This document shows positions 21,026-61,775 of a stretch of DNA of 64,000 nt, piece by piece. The first letter of the stretch is position 1. Each line of letters opens with the position of its first letter. This DNA comes from Polyangia bacterium. GTDB taxonomy: Bacteria > Myxococcota_A > Polyangia > JAAYKL01. The notes under the pieces are model-generated. The model searched no databases. It was not told where the DNA came from and worked only from the letters and a program-made list of their open reading frames with translations. The position numbers and the translations under genes were made by a program. The stretch covers positions 7,364 to 71,363 of the forward strand of contig JBNKCR010000129.1 in assembly GCA_050287845.1 (NCBI GenBank). The letters are read 5' to 3'.

Positions 21026-21376
21026 ATGTCGACTACGACTAAAAAGAAATCAGCACCTGCAAACAAAACCACCAGGAAGGCCAGCGCCCCGAAAGCAACC
21101 GCGAAGTCTGCCGCACCCAAAAAGCAGAGTACTTCGAAAACGGCGGCCCCCAAAACGGAGGCCCCTAAAAAAGCTGCGGCAAAGAAACCGTCTTCGGGGA
21201 ATGGCACATCCAGAGCAAAGGCGCAGTCCCGATTGCGTCAGCAGAGCGACAACATTGTCACCCATGAGATGATAGCAAATAAGGCGTACGACATCTGGGC
21301 TCAGAATGGCTATCCCCATGGCATGGATATGCAGAACTGGCTCCAGGCAGAGCGGGAACTGCGCGTTCACAACTGA
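21026..21376 (+). CDS. DUF2934-domain protein with Lys/Ala/Pro-rich N-terminal tail
   Basis: 116 aa; C-terminal motif IANKAYDIWAQNGYPHGMDMQNWLQAEREL matches the DUF2934 signature; N-terminal 70 aa is a histone-H1-like basic low-complexity tract. Confidence 0.65.
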   Translation: MSTTTKKKSAPANKTTRKASAPKATAKSAAPKKQSTSKTAAPKTEAPKKAAAKKPSSGNGTSRAKAQSRLRQQSDNIVTHEMIANKAYDIWAQNGYPHGMDMQNWLQAERELRVHN

Positions 21377-21594: not shown

Positions 21595-22917
21595 CTAATC
21601 CCAATTGGCCGACTTCGTATCCCATGCGGGATCAGAACAATAGGGGCAACTGTCGCCTACCAGCATTCCTTTTCCGGCGTCGCTTTCATCCCCTTTGAGG
21701 GTCCATTTGAGCCATGCCAGAATAATTTTCGTGAAATCGCCGCTCCCGCCCTGGCCCAGGTCGCCACCGTGTCCGATGTCCTTGCTGAAATACATAATCG
21801 GATTTTCAAGCTTGCTGATGGCATCGTAGTCGCGAAGTCCATTTTCGTAGGCCATATCACTGGGGCCGCCCTGCACAAACAGCACTGGCGTGTGAACGGT
21901 CTGATAAAAGGCATTGTCGGCCGCGAACATGCCGCTGCTGGTCAGCCCCCAGTTTGTCATCCGGGGATCACCTGCGGTGCCTTCGGCCATTAATCCACCG
22001 CAGGAGAAACCGTTGGCTGAGATTTTTGTGGGGTCAAGCTTGTGATAGTAGGGACTGCAGGGTTTGTGATTCTGCTCAATCGCCCAATCAATATATCTGA
22101 TTAGCGGTGCGCCCATTGCAGTCATGTCTCCGGTATCCATGCTGCGATTGCTGGCGTCGCCAGGGGTGCCATCCGCTACAACGAAAAATCCGTAGGAGGC
22201 AATTTCACCCATTGCTGCGGAGTTGGACCCGCCGTTTCGGGAACAAGCACCCTCACCCCATACAAATATGGGGAACCGTTCCTGGGCGTCCAGGTCGGCG
22301 GGACGGTAAATGGTGCCCTCGTTGATGCCGGAATCCGGATTTGTCTCTACCACCACATCATATGGACCGCTTCCGCTGGCGTTTATGCTGCTGACTTTCT
22401 GTGAATCTGTGCAGCTTCCATCAATATCCGGGCCGTCCACGTCACCGTCCGAATCTGTATCGGTGTCGGTGTCTGTATCGGTGTCGGTGTCGGTGTCTGT
22501 GTCTGTGTCGGTATCTGTATCGGTATCAGACTCCGGAATGGTCGCGCCTTCGCAACAGCGCAGCTCTCCTTCGCAGACGCCATTTCTTGCGGTGCCGTCC
22601 CACGAAACGCAGTGGGCCAGACATTCGTATGCGCAGATATCATCTGCATCGGAGTCCGTGTCTGTGTCTGTGTCGGAATCCGTGTCGGTGTCAGTGTCCG
22701 AATCTGTGTCGGTATCGGTATCCGAATCGGTATCAGTATCGGTATCCGAATCTGTGTCGGTATCGGTATCGGTATCCGAATCGGCGTCGCTGTCCGAATC
22801 AGAGTCGTCGGACGAGGAATCGTCTCCGGTGGTGTCCACTCCGCATGTCGGAAATGCGGTACATGCGAAAATCAGCAAAAATGCATACAGTACCATTTTT
22901 ATATTTTTTAACTTCAT
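21595..22917 (-). CDS. secreted alpha/beta-hydrolase esterase with Asp-Thr/Asp-Ser repeat linker
   Basis: Start chosen at MKLKNIKMVLYAFLLIFAC (signal peptide; ORF opens at 22977). Two acidic repeat tracts separated by a six-Cys segment, then a catalytic domain with nucleophile elbow GFSCGG. Confidence 0.75.
   Translation of the reverse strand: MKLKNIKMVLYAFLLIFACTAFPTCGVDTTGDDSSSDDSDSDSDADSDTDTDTDTDSDTDTDTDSDTDTDTDSDTDTDTDSDTDTDTDSDADDICAYECLAHCVSWDGTARNGVCEGELRCCEGATIPESDTDTDTDTDTDTDTDTDTDTDTDTDSDGDVDGPDIDGSCTDSQKVSSINASGSGPYDVVVETNPDSGINEGTIYRPADLDAQERFPIFVWGEGACSRNGGSNSAAMGEIASYGFFVVADGTPGDASNRSMDTGDMTAMGAPLIRYIDWAIEQNHKPCSPYYHKLDPTKISANGFSCGGLMAEGTAGDPRMTNWGLTSSGMFAADNAFYQTVHTPVLFVQGGPSDMAYENGLRDYDAISKLENPIMYFSKDIGHGGDLGQGGSGDFTKIILAWLKWTLKGDESDAGKGMLVGDSCPYCSDPAWDTKSANWD
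22425..22821 (-). repeat. coding hexanucleotide microsatellite (GAY-ACN/AGY)n encoding (D-T/D-S)n
   Basis: Runs of gtatcggtgtcggtgtctgt-type units on the plus strand (about 22440-22520 and 22640-22800), inside esterase codons 53-185. Confidence 0.8.
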
Positions 22918-23317
22918 TATATTGGTTCCTTTCAATTTGTTTTCAGGTCCCGGTTCCATTCGGGGCGAATACTCCATAAAAAATCACAGAATTTTCAGAG
23001 TTCCAGTATCCCGACAGCAAGTGAACAGCGCAGGAATAGTGACATTATTTATGCAAAATGCTGTTTTTCGGAAACGCGACGACTGCGTCGAAAAACATTC
23101 CACGCTGGTTGGTTTCAGTCTGATTGTCGCGTCGGATGCGGATTCGGAGCATATTGACTCCATGCGGATTGTCTAATAAGGAACCCATGAGAAACTGGGC
23201 TTCTGAGCATCTTTTTTTGTAAAGACATCTCAGGGGAAAATGGTAGGATGCCGTTTTTCTGAAAATCAGAAAATCACAATGTATGAACATTCGCAAACTG
23301 GAACATAGGCAACCTGC

Positions 23318-42747: not shown

Positions 42748-43144
42748 ACTCAATCAATTCAGAATCCGCTCGTCTGGCCCGGTTTGGGGCGTCACAATCA
42801 TCGGTTCACTTTCTGTTGAAAAAATAGCGGCAACGTACAATCAGGTTTCTGCATACTCCATGCAGCAGTTTTCGGATAACTTTCCCGTGAATTGCCACCT
42901 GCATTCAGCTTTCGCACACCCTGTAAAAAGCACAGTGCACGATACAGATAGTCTGGGCTTCAATTGTAAAACACTTTTTTTAATTTGCAGGCCCATCCGG
43001 AGTGTGACTGGCATTTCCTGTGCAATGAACACGAACATACTCTTTGCCGGCGAGGAAACCGGGATGCGTTCCGTTTTTGCAGCGCGTCTCAAACAAACAC
43101 TTTTACATTTCCTTAACTATGGGGAAAGACCAGGAGAAAGAATT

Positions 43145-43807
43145 ATGAAAAGAAGAAGTATTTTTGCATTGGTATTGTCGACGATTCTGTCATTTTCAGC
43201 ATTGGCTTCTGCACAGGAAATTATTCCGTCGTTTCAACTTCGTCTCGACAATGAAATTTATCCCATGACTCAGAGTGACCCACAAAGTGAGCCACAGACA
43301 TGGACCGCCGTGTTTTATCTGAACGAGGAGGAAGCTGAGCGAAATGAAGGGGTTCAGGCCAATATTGACTTCCAGATTGGGGATTTGACAGGGGGCACCA
43401 GCTGGTCCTATTGCTACTATCTGGAGGAGAATGTTTCCGTTCCCGAAACCGGACTGATTACAGAGAAAGGTGATATCAATCAGGTGCCTTTCCGCCTGTC
43501 TGCGGACGACCAGATTCCGGGCCGGTACAAAGCAGTACTTAACGCCAGTAGCGGTGCCATCGATTTCACATATCTGGATGAAGGCACCCTGGGAGACGTG
43601 AACCTTGATGGGGTTGTGGATATCGTAGATTCGCTGCTGATTTCTCAGGACTACGTCCACACCCCCATTACCTCTACCTACGAAACGGATCTTGCGGATG
43701 TTAATTGTGATGGAAGCGTGAATGTCGTTGATTCATTGCTGATTGCCCAGGCGTACGTTCAGGTTCAAAGCGCCATCGACACAATCGCGGAATGTGCCGC
43801 CAACTGA
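43145..43807 (+). CDS. secreted protein with C-terminal dockerin-type tandem repeat
   Basis: Start at MKRRSIFALVLSTILSFSALASA (signal peptide, GGAGAAAG RBS upstream; ORF opens at 42860). C-terminus has two Ca-binding-loop-like repeats, DVNLDGVVDIVDSLLISQDYV and DVNCDGSVNVVDSLLIAQAYV. Confidence 0.7.
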   Translation: MKRRSIFALVLSTILSFSALASAQEIIPSFQLRLDNEIYPMTQSDPQSEPQTWTAVFYLNEEEAERNEGVQANIDFQIGDLTGGTSWSYCYYLEENVSVPETGLITEKGDINQVPFRLSADDQIPGRYKAVLNASSGAIDFTYLDEGTLGDVNLDGVVDIVDSLLISQDYVHTPITSTYETDLADVNCDGSVNVVDSLLIAQAYVQVQSAIDTIAECAAN

Positions 43808-44002: not shown

Positions 44003-45199
44003 TCAGAACTGGGAGAAAAACGCCCATGTATCAGCGGGAACCCAGGAAGACGCGCCTCCCGGCGTTGGTGTGTTGCCACCGACGAAGATGCAGGCCCGTA
44101 CGGGGTACCCCTGTTGGCAACCTTCGAAATCAACGCACTCCGGTGTATTACCGCTACTATCAGTGGGGTCGGGCATGGCCTCGGCAAATGCATCCCGGCC
44201 CATGCCCGGGTCCGGCGCTATGCACCCGTTTGTCTTCGCAAAATCCTGCAGCGGTGGTACGCCGTACCCCGGATATTTGCAGACACTGTCGTTGATGCCA
44301 TGGGTCATATAATAGGCAACGGGACTGCTGTGCTGCTCGCAGCCACTCATTGGGCCCCCGGAATGAGCCGCAACCGCGCGAATCACATCCCCCATGGCGC
44401 AGGCCATGGCATAGGACATGGAACCGCCCATACTGAAACCCTCGCAGAAAATGCGCGATTTATCGATGCAAAGTTCGTCCTCCATTTTTGAGATCAGCTG
44501 ACGGGAAAATTCGACATCATCCCCATTGCGGTTCCACCAGGCATTGTTCAGCCCCTGGGGGGCGACAAAAATCGTACTCCCCTCGGCCAGATTCCATAGA
44601 CCATAATAGGAGCCCTGACTGACCCAATCCGACGTTTCGCCCATCGAATGATACGCCATCATTAAACGATATGGTTTATTGTTGTCGTAATCATCCGGAA
44701 TCTTGAGGTTGTATGAGCGGCTTGAGCCCGAGACATCTATGGATAGTCCGTTTCCACTCGAAAGCGTCGATGTTTTCCCGCAGCCGGCGCTTTTGTCGGG
44801 ATCACCATCTGTATCGGTATCCGTGTCGGTAACCATTTCCGTTTCCGTTTCCGTTTCCGTTTCCGTTTCCGTTTCCGTTTCCGTGTCCGTGTCGGTATCG
44901 GTATCGGTATCGGTGTCTGAACCCGTGTCGGAATCCGAATCAGAGTCTGAATCCGTGTCGGAGTCTGAATCCGTGTCGGAGTCGGAATCCGTGTCGGAGT
45001 CGGTATCCGAATCTGTATCTGTATCTGTATCGGAATTGGTATCGGTAGCTGTATCGGTATCCGAATTTGAATCGGCATCACTGCTGTTGATGTCACTAGT
45101 CTTATCTTGATTGACTAGTTCTGTATCGACGCACGTTGCCAGGGCAAATGAGATAATCATCAGAAAAAACAGATGTTTCCAGTCAGATATGCAATCCAT
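44003..45199 (-). CDS. secreted esterase (PHB-depolymerase / feruloyl-esterase-like alpha/beta hydrolase) with Asp-Thr/Asp-Ser/Glu-Thr repeat linker
   Basis: Start at MDCISDWKHLFFLMIISFALATC (signal peptide; ORF opens at 45298); about 100-aa acidic repeat tract; catalytic domain with GFSMGGSMSYAMACAMGD nucleophile elbow and several Cys. Confidence 0.75.
   Translation of the reverse strand: MDCISDWKHLFFLMIISFALATCVDTELVNQDKTSDINSSDADSNSDTDTATDTNSDTDTDTDSDTDSDTDSDSDTDSDSDTDSDSDSDSDTGSDTDTDTDTDTDTETETETETETETETEMVTDTDTDTDGDPDKSAGCGKTSTLSSGNGLSIDVSGSSRSYNLKIPDDYDNNKPYRLMMAYHSMGETSDWVSQGSYYGLWNLAEGSTIFVAPQGLNNAWWNRNGDDVEFSRQLISKMEDELCIDKSRIFCEGFSMGGSMSYAMACAMGDVIRAVAAHSGGPMSGCEQHSSPVAYYMTHGINDSVCKYPGYGVPPLQDFAKTNGCIAPDPGMGRDAFAEAMPDPTDSSGNTPECVDFEGCQQGYPVRACIFVGGNTPTPGGASSWVPADTWAFFSQF
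44797..45094 (-). repeat. coding hexanucleotide microsatellite encoding (D-T/D-S/E-T)n
   Basis: Runs of gtatcggtatcggtgtc and gtttccgtttccgtttcc units on the plus strand inside the esterase gene. Confidence 0.8.
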
Positions 45200-45378: not shown

Positions 45379-46224
45379 TCATGCGGCCTCCTTAATTGAG
45401 ACTTTTGCCGGATTGAGGGACACCGTTTCTACCGGGATCCAGTTTCGTGTTTTTCCAGTCCAACGGTTTGGTTCTTTTTGTTTTGCACTCTCATAAACCA
45501 AATGTCGTTGACGCAAAATTTCTTTATCATCACCATTATGGCGCGCCTCGGGGGTAACGAAGCGGATGCCGCTGTGTAAGTGTTTTGTATTGTACCAAAT
45601 CACAAATTTCTCCATCCAGCGCCTTGCTGAATCGATGGATTCAAACGGCTTGTGAGGGTATTCTGGTCTGTACTTTAATGTTCTGAAGATTGACTCGGAA
45701 TAGGGGTTATTATCGCTTACTCCCGGGCGACTGAAAGATGCCATCACGCCAGGCTGGTCAAGTGTCGCAAGCATTGTGGCGCCTTTCATCGGGCCGCCGT
45801 TGTCTGAATGCAAAGAAAGCTGATTTGCATCTACACCATTGGCGTCAATAATCTGGACAATCATGGCAGATGAAATTTCCATACACTCACGGTCGTGAAT
45901 TTCCCATCCAATAATCTTTCTGCTCCAAACGGCCAGCACAAGATACGGATAATAAAACGTTCCTCTGACCGCTGCAGGCAAGTACGAAATATCCCAACTC
46001 CACACCTGATTGGGGCCCGTTGCCAAAAGTTCATCGGGTCGATTGTGCGTTGCGGGTTTTGAGGATTCTCGATGTTGCTGTTGTCCCTCCTCACGAAGAA
46101 TCCGATACATGGGAGACTCGGATGCCACGTACACGCCGCTATCAGCCAACCTGGGTACAATTTGATAGTTCCCTTGAAGGGTTGACCGATACGCCCAAAG
46201 AAGCGCTGACAATGGGCATCGCAT
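45379..46224 (-). mobile_element. IS3-family transposase remnant (OrfB integrase-core part only; OrfA and the 5-prime part missing)
   Basis: Integrase-core (rve) signature PNQVWSWDISYLP...YYPYLVLAVWSRKIIGWEI and the DDE region; no HTH OrfA frame upstream; transposase-like similarity starts only about 30 codons into the ORF. Confidence 0.7.
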
Positions 46225-53999: not shown

Positions 54000-54222
54000 C
54001 GCCACGGGCAGGACGGTGCGACGCTTCCCCGGTGCGCCGGGATGTGAAGCCCACCGCATCGCCGGTCTGTCGCCTAAACAACGAGACGGCCTTTCGTAAT
54101 ATTATTAATTTAGCAATTATTTGTTTTCGGTAAGTACAGAAAATACGTGTAGTTTTTGGTTCGCGCAGTGGTATAAACCTTTGGAACGGATAAAAAATGA
54201 TTTTCGCAACCCCGGACCAGAT

Positions 54223-55851
54223 ATGACATTGATCCGTTTTTTATTGAGTGCGTCCCTGAAAATGACGCTGCTCACCATATTCGTGGCACTGCTCAGCGGC
54301 GCATTCAGCGGCGCCGTTGTGGCTGTGGTGCATCGGACGATTGAATCAGACCGTGAACTGACGCTGCTGCTGGGTATCGCATTTGTTCTGGCGGCGACCG
54401 GTAAACTGATTACCGGATATTTCAGTGAAGTCATGCTCACCAGAAGAGCGCAGACCGCCGTCGCCGCGTTGCGTCTGGACCTGGTTCGCAAACTGCAGCG
54501 GGTGCCGTTCAAGCGCTTTGAGGAGTTGGGACAGGCGAGGATTCTCACCACCTTCACCGACGATGTGGCGTCAGTAAGCCAGGGGCTGTACCAGCTGCCG
54601 GCATTCACCATCAACGTTGCGGTGTCTCTGGGCGGGGCGCTGTACCTGGTATATCTGTCGTGGCAGACACTGTTTCTCCTCGGCGGGCTGTCGCTCATTG
54701 GCGCCCTGGTGTATCGCTTCATGCTGAGACGTGCATGGCGGGTGTATGGCCTGGCGCGCGATGAGCGGGATCGACTGAACAATCACCTCGTTACATTGAC
54801 CCGGGGTATGAAGGAACTCAAACTGCACCGACCGCGACGTCATGCCTATACCGAAGTTGAGCTCCAACACAGCACCGACAGGCTCATGGAACTGGATGTC
54901 AAATCCCACTCGCGGTATATTCTGGCCCACAGCACCACCCATTTTTTTCTGATGGTCCTCATCGGACTGATTGTATTTGTCTCGCCCCAGCTCCTGCATA
55001 TTTCCGAAACCACGGTGACCGGATATGTGTTGATTGCACTTTTTCTGATGGGACCCCTGAGCGGGATTGCCGGCACCATGCCGGTATTCAGCCGGGCCGG
55101 GGTGGCTGTGGATCGCATCCGCAAACTGGGGATTTCATTCGATTCCGGCAAGCAGGAAAAAGCGGTGGTCACTGCAGAGGACGCCGCGTCGTTTATGGAA
55201 ATATCGCTGAATGAGGCCACATGTGTCTATGAAAGGGAAGGGGACGCCCCCTTTACCCTTGGACCGGTGAACCTGAAATTCGGTCCGGGCGAATTGATTT
55301 TTATTACCGGCGGAAATGGAAGTGGCAAGTCTACCCTCGCGAAGTTACTCACCGGTCTGTATGCACCCGGGGACGGTCAGATTCTGTGGAATGGCACACC
55401 GGTGACTGACGAAAATCGGGATGATTACCGGCAGCTGTATACCACGGTGTTTTCAGATTTCTTTTTATTTGAATCGCTGCTGGGACTGGATTCCCCCAAT
55501 CTGGACACCCGGGCGCAGAGCCATTTGAAAAATCTGGGACTCGATAAAAAAGTGCGCATTGAACATGGCGCATTGTCAACGGTGAATCTTTCAACCGGAC
55601 AACGAAAGCGGCTGGCATTGCTGACCGCATATCTTGAAAATCGACCAATCTATGTGTTTGACGAGTGGGCAGCGGACCAGGACCCGTCGTTCAGAAAAGT
55701 GTTTTATGAAGAACTGATTCACGATTTGAAAGCAGAGGGCAAAACAATCCTCGTGATTACGCATGATGACAGATATTTTCACCTGGCGGACCGACATTTT
55801 GAAATGAGGGACGGGCAGATGGCAGAACGGGACAGACAAAAAAAGGAATAG
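54223..55851 (+). CDS. cyclic-peptide/siderophore-type ABC exporter (fused permease-ATPase)
   Basis: Start at MTLIRFLL (ORF opens at 54121); N-terminal six-helix permease; C-terminal ATPase with Walker A GGNGSGKST, signature LSTGQRKRLALL, Walker B IYVFDEW. Confidence 0.8.
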   Translation: MTLIRFLLSASLKMTLLTIFVALLSGAFSGAVVAVVHRTIESDRELTLLLGIAFVLAATGKLITGYFSEVMLTRRAQTAVAALRLDLVRKLQRVPFKRFEELGQARILTTFTDDVASVSQGLYQLPAFTINVAVSLGGALYLVYLSWQTLFLLGGLSLIGALVYRFMLRRAWRVYGLARDERDRLNNHLVTLTRGMKELKLHRPRRHAYTEVELQHSTDRLMELDVKSHSRYILAHSTTHFFLMVLIGLIVFVSPQLLHISETTVTGYVLIALFLMGPLSGIAGTMPVFSRAGVAVDRIRKLGISFDSGKQEKAVVTAEDAASFMEISLNEATCVYEREGDAPFTLGPVNLKFGPGELIFITGGNGSGKSTLAKLLTGLYAPGDGQILWNGTPVTDENRDDYRQLYTTVFSDFFLFESLLGLDSPNLDTRAQSHLKNLGLDKKVRIEHGALSTVNLSTGQRKRLALLTAYLENRPIYVFDEWAADQDPSFRKVFYEELIHDLKAEGKTILVITHDDRYFHLADRHFEMRDGQMAERDRQKKE

Positions 55852-55859
55852 TATTTTTT

Positions 55860-58800
55860 ATGTTGGCATATGGAATAGATACCATCAACGAAGCTTTAAA
55901 ACGAAATGCAGAGCAGTATGGCGACGACATTGCGTTCCGATTCATCCAGGGCGGTACAGATGAAAAGAGTATCACCTACGCCGAACTGTATTCGAGAGCG
56001 CTGCAGATAGCTTCGCAGTTTCGATTGGCAGAAATCCCGTTACAGTCGAAGGTATTGATTCTGTATCCGTCCTCCCTTGAATACATCTGCACGCTGTTCG
56101 GTTGTTTTCTGGCGGGGACAACCGCGATACCGGCGTATCCACCGGTGTTCAACCGGTCACTCTCCGCCCTGCGGAATATCGTTCTCGATTCCGGAGCAAC
56201 CATCGCCTGTGTGGAATCGGCGATTCGGGAGCAGTTGCAACCGTTGCTTCACACGGAGTCCTGGCTCGAAAATCTGAACTGGATGACCCCGGAAGAAGAT
56301 GTTGACGACGCCGTCGATACGAGCGCCCTGCCAGATGTGGCGCCGGAAGACCTGGCCGTTCTGCAATACACGTCCGGTTCCACCAGTGCCCCCAAAGGCG
56401 TGATGTTGTCCCATCGAAATCTGGTGGCCAATGCCCATATGCTCATGGCGCGTGTGCAGGCGACCGCCCGGGTAGACAGAATGGTCGCCTGGCTGCCCCC
56501 GTTTCACGATATGGGTCTCATCGGGAGTATTCTGGCGCCGGTATGCGCCCGGGTGGAATCCACCCTGATGCCCCCCAGTTCGTTTATCAAAAAGCCCCTT
56601 CGCTGGCTGGAAGCGATTTCCAGATATCGGGGAACCATCACTGCGGCGCCGGATTTCGCGTACGAGATGTGTGTGCATCGCACCCCTCCGAAGCAGCGGG
56701 AACTGGTGGATCTCTCCAGCCTGCGCGTGGCCCTGAACGGGGCGGAGAAGGTTCGCGAAGACACGCTGAACCTGTTCTGTGATGCGTTTAAATCGCAGGG
56801 ATTCTCAATGTCGGCATTTGCGCCGTCCTACGGGTTGGCGGAAGCGACACTGGGGGTTGCCATCAAACGGAATGGCAATACGCCGCTTGCCCGCCGATTT
56901 GATACGGAGAAACTGAAGGAAGGGTTGGCGGTCCCGGTCGGCGGCGATGACGGCACATCCCTGGTCACCTGCGGCAAGCCCCTCGATGGCGTGGATGTGA
57001 AAATTGTTTCCATTGAAACGCGGCAAGTCGTTACACCCGGGATGATTGGCGAAATTTGGGTGCGCAGCGCCAGCGTGTCCAGGGGATACTGGCAGAAAAT
57101 CGAGTTGAGTCGTGAGATTTTTGAAGGAACGCTGCCTTCGGATGGCAGACCGGATGAGAAGTATCTGGCCACCGGTGATTTGGGATTCCTGTATGACAAT
57201 GAATTGTATGTGACCGGCCGCCACAAGGATCTGATCATTGTGCTGGGGGTCAATCATTATCCGGAAGACATCGAGAAAACAGTTGAATCCGCCCATCCCG
57301 CCATCCGGCAACATACTGTCATTGCGTTTGCGCTGCCGATAAACGGGACCGAGCGCGTGGTGGTGACCACTGAGATTGCCCGGGGCAATGAATTCGCCCT
57401 CGACGACATCATTGGTGCCATCCGCAATGCCATCAGCACCCGACATCAGTTGCCGGTGTACGATATTGTGCTGCTTCCCCAGGGAGGACAGGTGGCCAGG
57501 ACCACCAGCGGGAAGCCACGGCGCAGCGCGTCCCGGCAGAAGTACGAAGCCAACGGGTTTACGCCGCTGGGAAGCAGTCAGATGCAGCAGGGGACAGAAT
57601 CGGGTTCTCCGGCGGAAGAAATTGCAGTGGTCCAGCGGGTCATGGCGGAAGTGCTTTCGGTGGACCGGGTTTCAGCAGACGACGACTTCTTTGCCCTGGG
57701 CGGACATTCGCTCATCGCCACCCAGCTGGCCTCCCGGTTGGCATCTCTCTGGGAAAGAGAGGTGCCCGTGCGGGTGATATTCGAGCGGCCGACGGCTGCC
57801 CGGCTGGCGGGGGTGCGGCACTCGCTGCCGGTGACCGGAAAACGGAATCAGATACAGAAGGTGGACCGAAGCGGTCCGCTGGTGCTTTCCCACTCTCAGG
57901 AGCGAATGTGGCTGTTGCACCAGCTGGAACCGGATGGCACGGCATACAATGTTTCCGGTGCGGTAGTGGTGGATGGTCCGTTCAACGTGGTCCATTGCCA
58001 GACGGCGATGCAGCGCCTGGTTGACCGCCATGAAACCCTGCGAACCACTTTCCCTTCCGAAGGCGGTACGGTTTCTCCCATGATTCACTCCAATGTGAAA
58101 ATCAACGTTGTTTGTGAAGACCTGTCGAGCGCCGATGACCCGCTGGAACAGGCCGCACGCAAGGGGTCGCTGCTGGCCCACAGGCCGTTTGATCTGGCGA
58201 GGGATTTGCTGATACGGGTTGCCATATTCAAAGTTGCCGACGTTCGGCATGCCATTGTCATTTCGATGCATCATGTCATCTCCGATGCATGGTCTCTGGG
58301 CGTGGTGCTCAAAGAAATCATGGAAGACTACCTGGCATTGAACCGGGGCGAAGTTCCGACTTCGGTGGTGCCGGACATTCAGTATGTGGATTACGCGGCC
58401 TGGTTCCGGCCCGTCGTGGAAAGTGAACGGTTCAATGATGAACTGTCGTATTGGCGGAACCGACTGCAGGGCACACCGAATCTTGAACTGCCCACCGATC
58501 GGTCCCCGGGTTCGAATGTGAGTTCAGCAGGGGAAATGGAACGACTGCAAATTTCGGAAACCCTGCGCAATGAAATTGAGGATTTGGCCCATCAACATGG
58601 CGCCACGCCATTCATGGTGATGCTGCTGGCCTTTGAAACCCTGTTGTACCGGTACAGCCGGCAAACGGATTTTGCCATCGGGGTGCCCATTGCCAACCGC
58701 AATCATCATCAGTCCGAACATCTGGTTGGCACCCTGGTCAATACCCTGGCTTTCCGCGCGAATCTGAATCCAAAGGAGGCATTCAGTGCGCAACTGGAAC

Positions 58801-61775
58801 GCATCCGGGAAGACTGCCTCGATGCGTATGCCCATCAGCAGTTGCCGTTTGAGCGGCTGGTGCAGGAACTGCATCTCGAACGGCGAGCGGGACAGACGCC
58901 CCTGGTGCAGGTGATGTTTGACTACGCCAATCCGCCCATGCCAAAGGCCCGGACCGACGAATTTTCGCTATCGCCCCTGTTCATTTCGAGACGGGCTGCC
59001 CAGTTTGATTTGAGTCTGCTCACCCTGGATTCCGAAATCGGATTCGTGACAGCGATGGAATATAGGAGCGATTTATTCGATGCGTCCACCGTGCGGCGCA
59101 TGCTGGACCATTACCTGCGTATTCTGAAATTGGCGGTCACCAATCCCACTCAGCGTCTTTGTGACATGGCGTTTCTTTCTCAGGATGAAATCCGGGAAAT
59201 CGTTGCTCTCGGCGCCAGCACAAATATGAAACCGGTTTCATCGGATACCACGGTCGCGCGCATTGTGGCTGGTGCCGATGGGGTGACAGGTAAAATGGCG
59301 GTGACAGATGAAGTCGATGGGATCACGTACGGCAGGTTGATGGAACTGACTCGTACGGCTGCCGCAAAGATGGCTGCGGCCAACGTGGCAGCGGGAAGCC
59401 GGGTGGCAGTATGTCTGGAACGGTCACGGCTGATGCCGGCGGCACTGCTGGCGGTGCACTGGCTGGATGCGGCGTACGTACCCATCGACCCGCATTTCCC
59501 GGCTGAACGGGTGAGATACATGCTGTCGGAGACCACGCCCGCGGTGGTGGTCTGCGATGAGGCCACCACCGCCGCGTATCCGGAGTTGGCGCAATACCCG
59601 TGTCTGCGGATTGAAGACGTGGTACAGAGCGAGCCCCTCACGCCACCACCTCTGACCACCCGACCCGATTCCACGGCGTATATTATTTTTACTTCCGGCT
59701 CCACGGGAAAACCAAAAGGAGTGGAGATTCCCCAGCGCGCCATGCTGAACTTTCTGGAGTCCATGGCCCATACACCGGGAATGACTGCCACCGATCGCCT
59801 GCTGTCCGTCACCACCATATCGTTTGACATTTCAGTGCTCGAAATCTTTTTACCGCTGCTCTGTCAGGCCGAAGTGAAGATTGTCGGCAGCGATACGGCA
59901 TTGAACGCCCAGAAACTGCGGGGAATACTGGAAGAGACTGATGTCACCGTGATGCAGGCCACGCCGGTCACCTGGCGGATGCTCATTGAATCCGGATGGG
60001 CAGGCAGCGATTTGTTGACGGTACTCTGCGGCGGTGAAGCAATGCCCGCTGATCTGGCGGAACAGTTGGTTACTCGCAGTAAAGCCCTGTGGAATATGTA
60101 TGGGCCTACGGAAACCACCGTGTGGTCCACGGTTCAGCAAATCAGAACAAAGGAAGCCATTGATATTGGCCGGTCCATTGATCGGACCGCAGTGTATATT
60201 CTGGATGCCACAAAACAGCTTTGTCCCATTGGTGTCACTGGCGAAATCTATATCGGCGGCGCCGGCGTGGCCAAAGGATATTTCAAGCGTCCGGAACTCA
60301 CGCAGGAGCGATTTGTCAAAGACCCCTTTACCCCCGGATTCGGCGATCGCATGTATGGTACCGGCGATCTTGGACGCATGCGATCGGATGGCACATTCGA
60401 ATGTTTCGGTCGTCTGGATCATCAGGTGAAAATTCGTGGATACCGCATTGAGCTGGGTGAAATTGAAGTTGCGCTGAAACAATTGCCCGAAGTGGCGGAT
60501 GCGGTGGTCATTCCCTGGGAGGTAACCCCCGGGGATGCGCGTCTTTCCGCCTATATTATCGCAGAAGGGACGGCGCCAGAGAGCGAGCAACTGCGAAATG
60601 TACTTCGAAAATCGCTGCCGGGATACATGGTGCCCAGCTGGTTCACGGTGATGGCCCAGTTCCCCACCACGCCCAACGGTAAAATTGACCGCAAGGCACT
60701 GCCTGGCCCCGATGCGAAACTGGAAGTGCAGAGCCCGCTGAGAGTCGCCCCGCGGAGTGAGACAGAGAAAGCGCTGGCCGTCCTGTGGGCCCGGACCCTG
60801 GATGTGACCCATCCGAGTATTACCGACAACTTCTTCGATGTGGGACACTCGCTGCTGGCTGCCCGGTTGTTCGGGCAAATCGAAAAAGAGATGGGGGTTT
60901 CGCTCCCCCTGTCGGTGCTGTTTTCGCATCCCACCATTGAGATGCTGTCCGCATACATCGACGGACAGGTCGATGAACTGGGGTATTACGAACTGAAATA
61001 TGTGGTGCCCATCAAACCCCGGGGGCGCGCCACGCCGGTGTTCTGTATCCACGGCGCCGGGGGGAACGTGCTCAATTTTGAGTCCCTCGCAAGGCATATC
61101 GACGCGGATTGTCCACTGTATGCCATCCAGGCCCGTGGGGTGCATGGCACGGAAACGCCCTTTGACACCATTGAAAAGACGGCGTCGGCCTATCTGGAAG
61201 AAGTCATGGAGATTCAACCGACCGGTCCATACATTATCATGGGATACTGCGCCGGTGGGGTTGTGGCATTTGAAATGGCCAGGCAGATTCAGTTGAAAGG
61301 TGACATGGTGCGGGATTTGATTCTGATAGATACGTTCCGTCCCGGGGTTGGCTATACCATTCCCTCATTCGGCAAACGGGTGCTTCGCGCGGCGACCAAA
61401 GGTCCGGGGCATTTCTTCCGACACAGTTTCTCCAGGCTGCATCGAATTAAAGAGGACAACGCCAATCTGAAGGCGCTGAACAGGCACCTGAGCGCCGGCG
61501 AGCCGGTGCCCCACGAACTGAGGACCCTTTGGCTGACCCGGGCGTTTCTGGACTCCGTTGAAAAGTACCAGCTGCCGGTGTACGATGGGGCACTCACCAT
61601 CTTTGAAGCGGCGGATGTTCCTTCGGATCTGGTGTGCAGTGAGCCCAATCTGGGATGGGATGGATACGCTGCGTCCATCAGTTGCACCAAAGTGCCGGGA
61701 GGCCACCTCACCCTCACCGACGAACCCAACGCAAAAGTCCTGGCCACCGAACTCTGCAACCGCCTCCACCGCTGA
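55860..61775 (+). CDS. non-ribosomal peptide synthetase, FAAL - carrier - C - A - carrier - TE (single amino-acid module with lipid-loading domain)
   Basis: 1971 aa. FAAL-like domain aa 1-565 (TSGSTSAPKGV). Carrier GGHSL (Ser617). C domain HHVISDAWS (aa 804-812). A domain core motifs FTSGSTGKPKGV, FDIS, NMYGPTE, GEIYIGGAGVAKGY, YGTGDL, GRLDHQVKIRGYRIELGEIE, LPGYMVP, PNGKIDRKAL. Second carrier FFDVGHSL (Ser1664). TE with IHGAGGN and GYCAG. Confidence 0.9.
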   Translation: MLAYGIDTINEALKRNAEQYGDDIAFRFIQGGTDEKSITYAELYSRALQIASQFRLAEIPLQSKVLILYPSSLEYICTLFGCFLAGTTAIPAYPPVFNRSLSALRNIVLDSGATIACVESAIREQLQPLLHTESWLENLNWMTPEEDVDDAVDTSALPDVAPEDLAVLQYTSGSTSAPKGVMLSHRNLVANAHMLMARVQATARVDRMVAWLPPFHDMGLIGSILAPVCARVESTLMPPSSFIKKPLRWLEAISRYRGTITAAPDFAYEMCVHRTPPKQRELVDLSSLRVALNGAEKVREDTLNLFCDAFKSQGFSMSAFAPSYGLAEATLGVAIKRNGNTPLARRFDTEKLKEGLAVPVGGDDGTSLVTCGKPLDGVDVKIVSIETRQVVTPGMIGEIWVRSASVSRGYWQKIELSREIFEGTLPSDGRPDEKYLATGDLGFLYDNELYVTGRHKDLIIVLGVNHYPEDIEKTVESAHPAIRQHTVIAFALPINGTERVVVTTEIARGNEFALDDIIGAIRNAISTRHQLPVYDIVLLPQGGQVARTTSGKPRRSASRQKYEANGFTPLGSSQMQQGTESGSPAEEIAVVQRVMAEVLSVDRVSADDDFFALGGHSLIATQLASRLASLWEREVPVRVIFERPTAARLAGVRHSLPVTGKRNQIQKVDRSGPLVLSHSQERMWLLHQLEPDGTAYNVSGAVVVDGPFNVVHCQTAMQRLVDRHETLRTTFPSEGGTVSPMIHSNVKINVVCEDLSSADDPLEQAARKGSLLAHRPFDLARDLLIRVAIFKVADVRHAIVISMHHVISDAWSLGVVLKEIMEDYLALNRGEVPTSVVPDIQYVDYAAWFRPVVESERFNDELSYWRNRLQGTPNLELPTDRSPGSNVSSAGEMERLQISETLRNEIEDLAHQHGATPFMVMLLAFETLLYRYSRQTDFAIGVPIANRNHHQSEHLVGTLVNTLAFRANLNPKEAFSAQLERIREDCLDAYAHQQLPFERLVQELHLERRAGQTPLVQVMFDYANPPMPKARTDEFSLSPLFISRRAAQFDLSLLTLDSEIGFVTAMEYRSDLFDASTVRRMLDHYLRILKLAVTNPTQRLCDMAFLSQDEIREIVALGASTNMKPVSSDTTVARIVAGADGVTGKMAVTDEVDGITYGRLMELTRTAAAKMAAANVAAGSRVAVCLERSRLMPAALLAVHWLDAAYVPIDPHFPAERVRYMLSETTPAVVVCDEATTAAYPELAQYPCLRIEDVVQSEPLTPPPLTTRPDSTAYIIFTSGSTGKPKGVEIPQRAMLNFLESMAHTPGMTATDRLLSVTTISFDISVLEIFLPLLCQAEVKIVGSDTALNAQKLRGILEETDVTVMQATPVTWRMLIESGWAGSDLLTVLCGGEAMPADLAEQLVTRSKALWNMYGPTETTVWSTVQQIRTKEAIDIGRSIDRTAVYILDATKQLCPIGVTGEIYIGGAGVAKGYFKRPELTQERFVKDPFTPGFGDRMYGTGDLGRMRSDGTFECFGRLDHQVKIRGYRIELGEIEVALKQLPEVADAVVIPWEVTPGDARLSAYIIAEGTAPESEQLRNVLRKSLPGYMVPSWFTVMAQFPTTPNGKIDRKALPGPDAKLEVQSPLRVAPRSETEKALAVLWARTLDVTHPSITDNFFDVGHSLLAARLFGQIEKEMGVSLPLSVLFSHPTIEMLSAYIDGQVDELGYYELKYVVPIKPRGRATPVFCIHGAGGNVLNFESLARHIDADCPLYAIQARGVHGTETPFDTIEKTASAYLEEVMEIQPTGPYIIMGYCAGGVVAFEMARQIQLKGDMVRDLILIDTFRPGVGYTIPSFGKRVLRAATKGPGHFFRHSFSRLHRIKEDNANLKALNRHLSAGEPVPHELRTLWLTRAFLDSVEKYQLPVYDGALTIFEAADVPSDLVCSEPNLGWDGYAASISCTKVPGGHLTLTDEPNAKVLATELCNRLHR

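What the first reader, a model, noticed from the sequence alone, without database searches (positions are those of the whole stretch)
21595..22917. Secreted esterase whose linker is encoded by a hexanucleotide microsatellite (Asp-Thr / Asp-Ser repeats)
Between the signal peptide and the GFSCGG hydrolase domain are two long acidic dipeptide-repeat tracts, about 60 and 35 residues, encoded by near-perfect (GAY-ACN)n repeats. Such DNA is prone to slipped-strand length changes, so linker length may vary between strains or cells. A second gene at 44003..45199 has the same organisation, suggesting a family of surface- or cation-tethered hydrolases.
Basis: seen in the sequence. Interest (0 to 1): 0.55.

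Follow-up and report, generated by a model that had tools for sequence, protein, structure and literature searches.

The report
Esterase on acidic Asp-Thr stalks
This gene encodes a probably lipid-anchored, cutinase-like esterase held on two long, strongly negative Asp-Thr/Asp-Ser spacer tracts that flank a small, undescribed six-cysteine defensin-like module; it is a lineage-specific version of the flexible linkers that polysaccharide-degrading bacteria commonly use, not a true DNA microsatellite switch.

Summary
The ORF is real (window 21595..22917, minus strand, 440 aa).

The catalytic domain is cutinase/PETase-like (fold match 2FX5, Foldseek E=1e-16). It belongs to a family of more than 1400 proteins, mostly from Polyangia (Myxococcota).

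- **Architecture is typical.** Most members have lipobox, a 100-190 aa low-complexity linker, then the enzyme. Here Asp-Thr/Ser replaces the usual Gly/Ser/Thr/Ala.
- **Not a microsatellite in gene 1.** Synonymous sites are scrambled. The longest perfect hexamer run is 20 bp, no more than codon shuffling gives.
- **Gene 2 differs.** Gene 2 (44003..45199) is an unrelated feruloyl-esterase-type enzyme and does carry a perfect 49-bp (GAAACG) run.
- **Stalk lengths look conserved.** Three orthologues have 145-156 aa from anchor Cys to enzyme.
- **One length difference seen elsewhere.** Two otherwise identical cassette-bearing proteins differ by a 16-aa in-frame indel in the stalk.
- **The module recurs.** It sits on varied carbohydrate-active enzymes, has no Pfam family, and resembles the core of fungal defensins (hhalign 87%).

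Verdict: a new variant of a known kind, of moderate interest.

The parts
21595..22917 (-). Gene 1: complete CDS (440 aa plus stop) of the acidic-stalk esterase
   Evidence: ORF list and sequence. The frame runs continuously from the signal peptide through both tracts into a domain with homologues at E=1e-128.
22861..22917 (-). Signal peptide MKLKNIKMVLYAFLLIFA plus candidate lipidated Cys19
   Evidence: Of 65 full-length-looking homologues, 39 also meet it. A second Cys (C25) sits just before the acidic region, so the exact site is uncertain.
22639..22839 (-). Acidic stalk 1 (aa 27-93, net charge -33; strict D[S/T/A] run aa 38-91; 8-aa / 24-bp super-repeat DSDTDTDT)
   Evidence: AlphaFold pLDDT is below 50, i.e. 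predicted disordered.
22534..22638 (-). Six-cysteine module (aa 94-128; Cys core CAYECLAHCVSWDGTARNGVCEGELRCC at 22552..22635)
   Evidence: The module recurs: 16 hits at E<=1e-3 among 1.84 billion representatives and two copies in locus L002. Alignment is A5. No Pfam family covers it. Its profile matches fungal cis-defensins.
22423..22533 (-). Acidic stalk 2 (aa 129-165, (DT)13 core, net charge -18)
21598..22422 (-). Catalytic alpha/beta-hydrolase domain, cutinase/PETase-like. Inferred triad: Ser305 (22003..22005, in GFSCGG), Asp354 (21856..21858), His383 (21769..21771)
   Evidence: PDB sequence hits 9k0h/9w68/9hl5/2fx5 at E=3e-12 to 2e-10. AlphaFold pLDDT above 90. Foldseek finds 2fx5 at E=1.3e-16, TM 0.83. 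S305 and H383 are invariant and D354 is nearly invariant (at least 90%) in 46 family members.
44003..45199 (-). Gene 2: exported feruloyl-esterase / PHB-depolymerase-family esterase with the same linker style (nucleophile Ser256 at 44432..44434)
   Evidence: PDB 8jh8 feruloyl esterase at E=2e-44 over the full domain. Not homologous to gene 1 beyond GFSxGG.
44798..45100 (-). Gene 2 acidic tract (aa 34-134: DS/DT, then DT, then ET repeats; aa 24-137 has net charge -45)
44836..44890 (-). True hexanucleotide microsatellite (GAAACG)n, encoding (Glu-Thr)n, inside gene 2
   Evidence: Tandem Repeats Finder: period 6, 9.2 copies, 97% match. Perfect period-6 run of 49 bp, P=0.0015 against synonymous-codon shuffles.

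Best explanation
Gene 1 encodes an exported, probably lipid-anchored, cutinase/PETase-like serine esterase.

How it is built and how I think it works:
- The enzyme is held away from its membrane anchor by about 147 residues.
- Those residues are two intrinsically disordered polyanionic (Asp-Thr/Asp-Ser)n stalks on either side of a small disulfide-rich, defensin-like module.
- The stalks act as extended spacers that resist compaction through charge repulsion. They are the local equivalent of the Gly/Ser/Thr/Ala/Pro linkers in most family members and of the polyserine linkers in lipoprotein carbohydrases of Saccharophagus.
- The six-Cys module most likely serves as a binding or targeting module.
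- The enzyme most likely removes ester groups from plant cell-wall polymers (acetyl or feruloyl esters, or cutin-like polyesters) at or near the cell surface.
- The repeat is kept by selection on the protein, meaning its composition and length. It is not a mutational switch.
- In-frame slippage or unequal exchange is how such tracts arise and occasionally change length in the lineage.

Shown here: the ORF, the tracts, the fold, the triad residues, recurrence of the module, the family architecture, and the degeneracy of the DNA repeat.

Inferred: lipidation, surface exposure, substrate, the module's function, and the stalk's physical behaviour.
For: Enzyme identity:
- The catalytic domain matches the P. 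mendocina cutinase-type lipase and PETases by sequence and fold. S305 and H383 are invariant and D354 nearly invariant.

Family architecture:
- More than 1400 homologues exist, named Polyangiaceae/Myxococcales where named. Most have a lipobox Cys at about aa 20-25 and a 100-190 aa low-complexity linker before the enzyme.
- Gene 1 meets the lipobox rule at C19.
- Orthologues in L002, P0035 and L005 use (D-x)n linkers. L002 and P0035 have the same stalk-module-stalk order and nearly the same lengths, 145-156 aa from anchor to enzyme.

Linker style is lineage-wide, not gene-specific:
- Gene 2 in the window has it.
- Four adjacent genes in L002 have it: a GDSL esterase, the orthologue, a second PETase-like esterase and a GH10 xylanase.
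- So do the module carriers P0123, P0127, P0128 and P0130.

Substrate context:
- Orthologues are fused to CBM6 or ricin-B lectin domains.
- The L002 orthologue sits beside a GH10 xylanase.
- Gene 2 is feruloyl-esterase-like.
- L002's genome belongs to an anaerobic Polyangia order enriched in plant-polysaccharide enzymes.

Stalk properties:
- Residues 20-165 carry net charge -54 and are predicted disordered.
- Staphylococcal Ser-Asp repeats were shown experimentally to be highly extended, compaction-resistant stalks because of charge repulsion (PMC10367597).
- S. degradans anchors carbohydrases through a lipobox plus a polyserine spacer of about 110 aa (PMC3124978).

DNA:
- Codon shuffling shows the DNA repeat in gene 1 is no purer than the amino-acid repeat requires.
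Against: - Lipidation is only a pattern match. Orthologues P0035 and L005 have non-canonical boxes (SMC, PMC), and gene 2 looks like a signal peptidase I substrate (ALA|T).
- The window protein does not reach any Pfam threshold, including PF12740.
- No activity, localisation, glycosylation or metal-binding data exist.
- In this window gene 1 is not inside a carbohydrate-enzyme cluster. It lies between cytochrome c maturation (ccm) genes, a DUF2934 gene and a UvrD-like helicase.
- Stalk-length conservation rests on three sequences.
- The module's function is a guess from its partners.
Confidence: 0.6

Rival explanations
1. Length-variable contingency tract. The repeats exist because slipped-strand mispairing generates stalk-length variants between cells or strains, which tunes how far the enzyme reaches.
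For: - Gene 2 has a perfect 49-bp hexamer run.
- L002 has an 18-bp x 4.8 tract at 100% match and a 36-bp x 3.1 tract at 95%.
- P0127 and P0137 are identical except for a 16-aa (2 x 8 aa) indel in the stalk next to the module.
- Staphylococcal SD-repeat regions vary between isolates (PMC5902956).
Against: - Gene 1's tracts have scrambled third positions and at most 20 bp of perfect periodicity, equal to the shuffled expectation.
- The unit is a multiple of 3, so there is no on/off switching.
- Three orthologues with entirely different repeat units keep similar stalk lengths.
- The P0127/P0137 difference could be an assembly collapse.
- The only close relative of gene 1 (L010, 93% aa identity) is cut at the repeat, so no direct comparison exists.
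Confidence: 0.2
2. Cation-binding tether. The poly-Asp tracts bind Ca2+/Mg2+ and bridge the enzyme to lipopolysaccharide, exopolysaccharide, mineral or pectin surfaces.
For: - Asp makes up 35% of the 146 residues, with net charge -54.
- Orthologue repeats of the D-x-D-x-D-G type (L002, P0035) resemble calcium-binding loop motifs. That resemblance is from my own knowledge and is only a lead.
Against: - There is no hit to TSP3, RTX or other calcium-binding repeat families in Pfam.
- Most family members do the same job with uncharged Gly/Ser/Thr linkers.
- Nothing was measured.
Confidence: 0.2
3. Mucin-like glycosylated stalk. The Thr/Ser of each dipeptide is O-glycosylated, as in staphylococcal SD repeats modified by SdgA/SdgB. 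This would give protease resistance and stiffness.
For: - Every second residue is Thr or Ser.
- SD repeats are glycosylated, which confers protease resistance (PMC8561734, PMC10367597).
- Cellulase linkers are often O-glycosylated (PMC3490864).
Against: - None of the 30 larger window ORFs scanned with Pfam, including those flanking either gene, matches a glycosyltransferase family.
- No protein O-glycosylation system was looked for genome-wide, because only a window is available.
Confidence: 0.15
4. Freely secreted multidomain enzyme. The Cys after the signal peptide is not lipidated. The acidic tracts are simply interdomain linkers joining a small binding module to the catalytic domain, as in Cellvibrio-type enzymes.
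For: - Non-canonical boxes occur in orthologues P0035 and L005, and gene 2 has a signal peptidase I-like site.
- The module-linker-enzyme order is typical of secreted carbohydrate-active enzymes.
Against: - Gene 1 itself meets the lipobox rule, as do 39 of 65 homologues and L002's orthologue (VIGC).
- A 75-aa stalk upstream of the module has no obvious role if nothing is anchored at its N-terminus.
Confidence: 0.25
5. Assembly artefact: a collapsed or chimeric repeat that creates a false ORF.
For: - Short-read contigs break at these tracts. L010 ends 40 nt from tract 2, and P0035's contig is only 2 kb.
Against: - The frame is intact through both tracts into a highly conserved domain.
- Independent assemblies (L002, L001/P0035, L005) show the same architecture and similar lengths.
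Confidence: 0.03

Closest known systems
Ser-Asp (SD) repeat 'R region' stalks of staphylococcal Clf/Sdr adhesins
   Same: - Long Asp-containing dipeptide repeats lie between the anchor and the functional domain.
- They are highly charged and disordered.
- They were shown to be extended and compaction-resistant (PMC10367597).
- They are encoded by degenerate short DNA repeats and are length-polymorphic (PMC5902956).
- NCBIfam Clf/Sdr models hit the tracts compositionally.
   Different: - Those proteins are Gram-positive and use a C-terminal LPXTG anchor, not an N-terminal lipobox.
- They are adhesins, not enzymes.
- Their repeats are Ser-dominated, not Thr-dominated.
- Scores are far below family cut-offs (47 bits against 1150).
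- No SdgA/B-type glycosyltransferase is evident in the window.
Lipobox plus polyserine-linker carbohydrases of Saccharophagus degradans, Cellvibrio and Teredinibacter
   Same: - These are Gram-negative plant/algal polysaccharide degraders.
- An N-terminal lipobox is followed by a spacer of about 100 aa that places enzymes at the cell surface.
- Small modules sit between linkers (PMC3124978).
   Different: - Their linkers are neutral polyserine.
- Here the linker is polyanionic (35% Asp, no Pro). That is also unlike typical bacterial cellulase linkers, which are about 35% Pro (PMC3490864).
- The phylum differs.
Bacterial cutinase/PETase-like hydrolases (Pfam PF12740; 2FX5 P. mendocina lipase, dsPETase05, HaloPETase1, IsPETase)
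   Same: - The fold matches (TM 0.83 to 2FX5).
- The G-x-S-x-G-G elbow and Ser-Asp-His order are shared.
- The C-terminal W-x-x-W/L helix and a C-terminal Cys pair are shared.
   Different: - Identity is only about 20-23%.
- The invariant motif is GFSCGG, with Cys after the nucleophile, not G[WH]S[MQ]GG.
- The window protein does not reach the PF12740 threshold.
- It forms its own large subfamily, centred on Polyangia, that carries N-terminal stalks.
Fungal/invertebrate-type cis-defensins (eurocin, plectasin, micasin) and free myxobacterial defensin-like peptides
   Same: - The module core a-Y-x-C-x-x-H-C-x-S-x-G-G-x3-G-x-C aligns without gaps to eurocin AYQCSEHCRALGGGRTGGYCAG (PDB profile E=0.005; hhalign probability 87%).
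- Cis-defensins are known in Myxococcota (PMC11561630, PMC8819291).
   Different: - Here it is a domain inside 180-800 aa (lipo)proteins that carry enzymes, not a free peptide.
- It ends in CC instead of CxC, and the first Cys is closer to the second.
- It is acidic, not cationic.
- The AlphaFold model shows no helix at CxxxC. Its nearest solved folds are beta-defensins, at non-significant scores.
CE1-type feruloyl esterases / PHB-depolymerase-family esterases (for gene 2)
   Same: - There is a full-length match to feruloyl esterase 8jh8 (E=2e-44).
- It carries a GFSMGG nucleophile elbow.
- It hits TIGR01840 and e_dPHAscl_type1.
   Different: - It falls below the NCBIfam cut-offs.
- It carries a 100-aa Asp/Glu-Thr/Ser tract at the N-terminus.

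Membership tests
Cutinase/PETase-like alpha/beta hydrolases (PF12740 clan) | Alpha/beta-hydrolase fold superposable on solved members | tested here: met
   The AlphaFold model has pLDDT above 90 over aa ~160-440. Foldseek finds 2fx5 at E=1.3e-16 (TM 0.83), then dsPETase05, HaloPETase1 and IsPETase.
Cutinase/PETase-like alpha/beta hydrolases (PF12740 clan) | Ser-Asp-His triad with the nucleophile in G-x-S-x-G | tested here: met
   S305 (GFSCGG) and H383 are invariant and D354 is at least 90% conserved in 46 members. Ser and Asp align with those of 9k0h. His is offset by 2 residues in the phmmer alignment.
Cutinase/PETase-like alpha/beta hydrolases (PF12740 clan) | Score above the Pfam PF12740 gathering threshold | tested here: not met
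   There is no PF12740 hit at E<=1 for the window protein. Many homologues carry precomputed PF12740 hits, but the hit is 'faint' for P0035.
Cutinase/PETase-like alpha/beta hydrolases (PF12740 clan) | Polyester/cutin or PET hydrolysis | not testable with these tools
   This needs an enzyme assay.
Bacterial lipoproteins (signal peptidase II substrates) | Basic N-region, hydrophobic region, and lipobox [LIVMFWSTAG]2-[LIVMFYSTAGCQ]-[AGS]-C at positions 15-35 | tested here: met
Gene 2 does not fit.
Bacterial lipoproteins (signal peptidase II substrates) | Actual diacylglyceryl modification and surface exposure | not testable with these tools
   This needs labelling, globomycin treatment and protease shaving.
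Microsatellite contingency (phase/length-variable) loci | Long perfect tandem array of a short unit | tested here: not met
   For gene 1 the maximum perfect period-6 run is 20 bp, no longer than codon shuffles give. The feature is met for gene 2 (49 bp, P=0.0015).
Microsatellite contingency (phase/length-variable) loci | Unit length not divisible by 3, or promoter location, so that slippage switches expression | tested here: not met
   Units are 6, 18 or 24 bp and lie inside the CDS, so the frame is always kept.
Microsatellite contingency (phase/length-variable) loci | Observed length polymorphism among close relatives | tested here: inconclusive
   The closest relative, L010, is cut at the repeat. 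A different cassette protein shows a 16-aa indel between identical proteins, but assembly collapse is not excluded.
Staphylococcal Sdr/Clf MSCRAMM adhesins | A-domain, B repeats, LPXTG anchor; score above the NCBIfam cut-off | tested here: not met
   Only the repeat region is hit, at 24-47 bits against cut-offs of 999-2500. There is no LPXTG motif.
Calcium-binding repeat families (TSP3, RTX and similar) | Match to the family profile | tested here: not met
   There are no such Pfam hits at E<=1.
Cis-defensins (CS-alpha-beta) | CxxxC ... GxC ... CxC motif and profile similarity | tested here: inconclusive
   The core CxxHC...GG...GxC matches (PDB profile E=0.005; hhalign 87%). The terminal CxC is replaced by CC, and the model lacks the helix.
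Beta-defensins (trans-defensins) | C-x6-C-x4-C-x9-C-x6-CC spacing, the beta-defensin fold, and profile similarity | tested here: not met
CE1 feruloyl esterase / PHB-depolymerase esterase family (gene 2) | Full-length sequence similarity to a solved member, and a GxSxG motif | tested here: met
   8jh8 at E=2.1e-44 over residues 5-267. GFSMGG is present. It is below the NCBIfam cut-offs (68.7 bits against 150).

The most novel reading that the evidence does not exclude
The stalk-module-stalk unit may be a portable, lineage-specific display or targeting cassette of anaerobic Polyangia. In this reading:
- A six-cysteine domain descended from, or ancestral to, CS-alpha-beta defensins has been recruited as a new carbohydrate-binding or envelope-binding module on many different carbohydrate-active enzymes.
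- It also occurs as three-copy mini-proteins.
- It is held on polyanionic Asp-Thr/Ser stalks whose length is adjusted by in-frame repeat gain and loss.

This would be the first defensin-type domain found embedded in bacterial enzymes, and a new binding-module family.
Probability: 0.2. Interest if true: 0.7.

Novelty: new variant of a known kind. Interest (0 to 1): 0.45.

Why it matters
- **Linker chemistry.** Low-complexity linkers decide how far, and how stiffly, surface enzymes are presented to insoluble substrates. A stalk that is extended by charge and contains no proline, placed on plant-polymer esterases, is a different physical solution from Pro/Thr, polyserine or glycosylated linkers. 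It could be useful for enzyme display engineering.
- **Annotation gap.** These tracts break short-read assemblies and mislead gene callers. One orthologue is annotated as a 254-aa protein in GenBank although the ORF is 437 aa. Secreted enzyme repertoires of these uncultured Myxococcota are therefore probably under-annotated.
- **The module.** The undescribed six-Cys module, shared by esterases, GH30, GH88 and beta-helix proteins, is a candidate new binding module. It may also link to myxobacterial defensin-like peptides.
- **The enzyme family.** The catalytic family is a large, uncharacterised branch of the PETase/cutinase fold.

Tried and rejected
- **Source genome.** An exact look-up of the window protein in public assemblies found nothing. 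The source genome is not among the GTDB representative genomes either.
- **Module searches by word index.** The exhaustive HMMER search did work.
- **Tools unavailable.** The afdb50 fold library was not available.
- **Paralogy of gene 1 and gene 2.** Rejected.
- **Beta-defensin homology.** Rejected at profile level.
- **Calcium-binding repeats and Sdr membership.** Rejected.
- **GC-content explanation for Asp-rich linkers.** Rejected. L005 (67% GC) and L006 (62% GC) also have D-x linkers.
- **Literature on Asp-Thr repeats.** Searches for Asp-Thr / Thr-Asp / DT repeats found nothing relevant. A search for Asp-rich linkers in glycoside hydrolases or lipobox proteins found no precedent.
- **Overlapping ORFs.** The plus-strand ORFs over the tracts (22310..23176 and others) are antisense or frame-shifted readings of the repeat and have no support.
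- **P0128.** Its catalytic part has no PDB sequence match.
Full report
**1. What is in the sequence**

The finding's coordinates are exactly one ORF on the minus strand, 21595..22917 (440 aa plus stop). An AAAGGA-type ribosome-binding site lies about 10 nt upstream of the ATG at 22917. The protein reads as follows:
- MKLKNIKMVLYAFLLIFA-C19, a signal peptide with a candidate lipidated Cys.
- A short hinge.
- Acidic region 1, aa 27-93. Its strict D[S/T/A] run is aa 38-91 (54 aa), with an 8-aa super-repeat DSDTDTDT.
- A six-Cys segment, ICAYECLAHCVSWDGTARNGVCEGELRCCEGATIP, aa 94-128.
- Acidic region 2, aa 129-165, with a (DT)13 core.
- A 275-aa domain containing GFSCGG.

Residues 20-165 contain 51 Asp, 34 Thr and 15 Ser out of 146. 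Their net charge is -54. Tandem Repeats Finder reports the tracts with periods 6, 12, 18 and 24. The module between them was not noticed.

**2. Is it a microsatellite?**

At the DNA level it is not, for gene 1.
- Period-6 arrays match only 72-84%. The 24-bp array matches 80%.
- GAT/GAC and ACC/ACA/ACT/ACG are interleaved.
- I permuted synonymous codons among positions with the same amino acid inside each tract, 2000 times. The observed longest perfect period-6 run is 20 bp in both tracts, which is ordinary (P=0.18 and 0.43).
- Codon identity at lags of 2-8 codons is also ordinary.
- Only a 26-bp exact repeat in tract 1 is mildly unusual (P=0.015).

The periodicity is therefore a property of the protein. 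The DNA has had time to randomise at silent sites.

Gene 2 is different. It has a perfect 49-bp (GAAACG) run (P=0.0015) and an 18-bp periodicity (P=0.0005). All units are multiples of 3, so slippage can change length but not switch the gene off.

**3. The enzyme**

- Pfam gives no significant hit for the window protein.
- phmmer against PDB sequences finds PETase-like hydrolases 9k0h, 9w68 and 9hl5 (E about 3e-12 to 9e-12). It also finds the Pseudomonas mendocina cutinase-type lipase 2fx5 (E=2e-10). These matches cover the whole domain.
- An AlphaFold model built on 46 family sequences is confident over aa ~160-440 (pLDDT above 90). It has no confidence over aa 21-156.
- Foldseek places the model next to 2fx5 (E=1.3e-16, TM 0.83), dsPETase05, HaloPETase1 and IsPETase.
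- In the family alignment G303-F-S305-C-G-G and G382-H383-G-G-D-L are invariant. D354 is at least 90% conserved. This is the expected Ser-Asp-His order.

**4. The family and its linkers**

A search with the catalytic domain alone returns 1425 proteins at E<=1e-3. The best is 73% identical. Named ones are Polyangiaceae, Myxococcales or 'Deltaproteobacteria' metagenome-assembled genomes.

Full-length members typically have a lipobox Cys at aa ~20-25 and then 100-190 residues rich in Gly/Ser/Thr/Ala/Pro before the enzyme. Of 65 such members, 39 fit a PROSITE-type lipobox rule, and gene 1 fits it at C19. A long low-complexity spacer after a lipid anchor is therefore the norm in this family. What is unusual here is its chemistry.

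The same (D-x)n chemistry occurs in orthologues from related lineages:
- L002 is from Zodletone genome Zod_Metabat.76 (accession prefix JAFGQN). Its orthologue is 70% identical in the catalytic domain. It reads VIGC lipobox, (DSDxDG)n, module, (DxDSDG)n, enzyme.
- P0035/L001 is 66% identical and has the same order.
- L005, a Polyangia genome, has a 150-aa (D-x)n linker without the module.

Stalk lengths in residues:

| Orthologue | Anchor Cys to module | Module to enzyme | Total anchor to enzyme | Source |
|---|---|---|---|---|
| Window gene 1 | 75 | 44 | 147 | |
| L002 | 71 | 45 | 145 | |
| P0035 | 89 | 39 | 156 |; stalk 2 and total counted by hand after a script error |

These lengths are similar despite completely different repeat units.

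Other orthologues carry a CBM6 domain (L013/L006) or ricin-B lectin domains (Sorangium, L008) in place of the cassette.

**5. The linker style belongs to the lineage, not the gene**

L002's 6-kb contig holds four adjacent exported enzymes, each with (D-x)n tracts:
- a GDSL esterase preceded by the same stalk-module-stalk cassette;
- the orthologue of gene 1;
- a second PETase-like esterase;
- a GH10 xylanase.

In the window, gene 2 (44003..45199) uses DS/DT/ET tracts. Its catalytic domain matches feruloyl esterase 8jh8 at E=2e-44. It shares only the nucleophile elbow with gene 1.

The paper describing the Zodletone genomes lists JAFGQN among its accessions. It places genus JAFGQN01 in a new anaerobic order of Polyangia that is enriched in cellulose, xylan and pectin enzymes, including GH10/GH11 (10.1101/2021.07.06.451402).

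The window itself looks like ordinary chromosome from such an organism. It carries ccm genes, a sigma-54 activator, a 2-oxoacid:ferredoxin oxidoreductase, an OmpA-family protein, an NRPS and a dockerin-bearing protein.

**6. The six-Cys module**

An exhaustive profile search of 1.84 billion representatives found 16 proteins at E<=1e-3. The consensus is C-x-[YF]-x-C-x2-H-C-x-S-x-G-G-x2-M-x-G-x-C-x3-[LQ]-x-C-C-[DE].

Carriers:
- small lipoproteins with three tandem copies (P0121, P0122, P0129);
- lipobox, (D-x)n, module, then a beta-helix protein (P0123);
- GH30 (P0130);
- GH88/105 with a Gly/Ala linker (P0131);
- an unassigned domain (P0128);
- Cys-rich proteins (P0127, P0136).

P0019, P0123 and P0130 share the JXR76_ locus-tag prefix, and P0019 appears to be the annotated, truncated product of the L002 orthologue. 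One genome therefore probably has at least four module-bearing proteins.

No Pfam family covers the module. What it resembles:
- Its profile hits one PDB sequence, the fungal defensin eurocin (E=0.005). The alignment is ungapped: aYeCldhCvsiGGtvmegtCeg against AYQCSEHCRALGGGRTGGYCAG.
- hhalign against eurocin, plectasin and micasin gives 87% probability.
- hhalign against beta-defensins gives 1%.

I therefore call it defensin-like with unresolved topology.

Free cis-defensin peptides are known mainly from Myxococcota. The published census discarded proteins longer than 130 aa and required the complete cysteine-stabilised helix motif (PMC11561630). By my reading, the module's terminal CC in place of CxC would not meet that requirement. 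That census would therefore not have seen this module.

**7. Length variation**

- The closest relative of gene 1 is L010 (93% aa, 89% nt identity, syntenic). It is a contig that ends 40 nt from tract 2, so no comparison is possible.
- P0127 and P0137 come from two assemblies and sit in the same 90% cluster. They are 100% identical at every aligned residue. They differ in start call and in a 16-aa indel, DADSDSDSDADSDSDS (two 8-aa units), in the stalk just upstream of the module.
- Some tracts in L002 are 95-100% perfect 18/36-bp arrays.

Tracts of this class do expand and contract in frame. Gene 1's tracts are old and degenerate.

**8. Mechanism**

The best-supported reading (confidence 0.6) is a probably lipid-anchored, cutinase-like esterase presented on polyanionic, disordered, extended stalks. 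A small disulfide-rich binding module is inserted in the stalk, and the enzyme acts on ester-bearing plant polymers.

The stalk physics is inferred from experiments on staphylococcal SdrC Ser-Asp repeats. Those behave as highly extended, compaction-resistant stalks because of electrostatic repulsion (PMC10367597).

The anchoring logic is inferred from lipobox plus polyserine carbohydrases of Saccharophagus degradans (PMC3124978).

The rivals are length-variable contingency, cation tethering, O-glycosylated stalk, free secretion and assembly artefact. Each is scored separately in the rival explanations.

**9. Novelty**

Low-complexity linkers, lipoprotein carbohydrate enzymes and acidic SD stalks are all known. 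An Asp-Thr/Ser stalk on Gram-negative plant-polymer esterases is a new variant, and I found no description of it in the library. The recurrent defensin-like module on carbohydrate-active enzymes appears undescribed.

**10. Limits**

- There is no biochemical evidence.
- Lipidation, surface exposure, substrate and module function are all inferred.
- Stalk-length conservation rests on three orthologues.
- The defensin relationship rests on a 22-column match.

Noticed in passing
window 22534..22638 (-): A six-cysteine module of about 32 aa lies between the two acidic tracts. It recurs on diverse carbohydrate-active enzymes and in three-copy mini-lipoproteins. It has no Pfam family, and its core matches fungal cis-defensins (eurocin).
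   Followed up: yes
window 44836..44890 (-): A perfect (GAAACG)n hexanucleotide microsatellite encodes (Glu-Thr)n inside gene 2. It is the only tract in the window that is a true microsatellite.
   Followed up: yes
window 42860..43807 (+): This ORF carries a type I dockerin domain (Pfam E=3e-9) directly upstream of gene 2, in what looks like a Myxococcota genome. No cohesin partner was looked for.
   Followed up: no
window 45379..46224 (-): An IS3-family transposase (rve integrase core) lies immediately next to gene 2. Gene 2 may therefore sit at a mobile or rearranged spot.
   Followed up: no
window 21026..21376 (+), repeat at 21137..21170: A small DUF2934 protein has a Lys/Ala/Pro-rich, histone-H1-like N-terminal half that contains a 15-bp tandem repeat. 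It converges on gene 1's 3' end.
   Followed up: no
L002 1629..2942 versus protein P0019: The GenBank annotation of the Zodletone orthologue starts at an internal Met (254 aa), while the ORF with lipobox, stalks and module is 437 aa. Acidic-repeat N-termini appear to be trimmed by gene callers.
   Followed up: partly
L010 (Ga0316576_10181852), position 1; L001 (2046-bp contig): Short-read contigs carrying these genes end at or near the acidic tracts, so repeats of this type fragment assemblies and hide full-length proteins.
   Followed up: partly
P0127 versus P0137 (L025 377..1630): Two otherwise 100%-identical proteins from different assemblies differ by a 16-aa (2 x 8 aa) in-frame indel in the acidic stalk next to the module. 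This is either strain polymorphism or assembly collapse.
   Followed up: partly
L002 1..5936: A compact cluster of four exported enzymes all carry D-x repeat linkers: a GDSL esterase, two PETase-like esterases and a GH10 xylanase.
   Followed up: yes
window 55860..61775 (+): A 1971-aa NRPS-type protein has two AMP-binding domains, a condensation domain, two carrier domains and a thioesterase. It follows an ABC exporter (54121..55851).
   Followed up: no
window 21998..22011 (-), family-wide: A Cys immediately after the catalytic Ser (GFSCGG) is invariant in this subfamily. PETase-like enzymes have Met or Gln at that position, and the role of the Cys is unknown.
   Followed up: no
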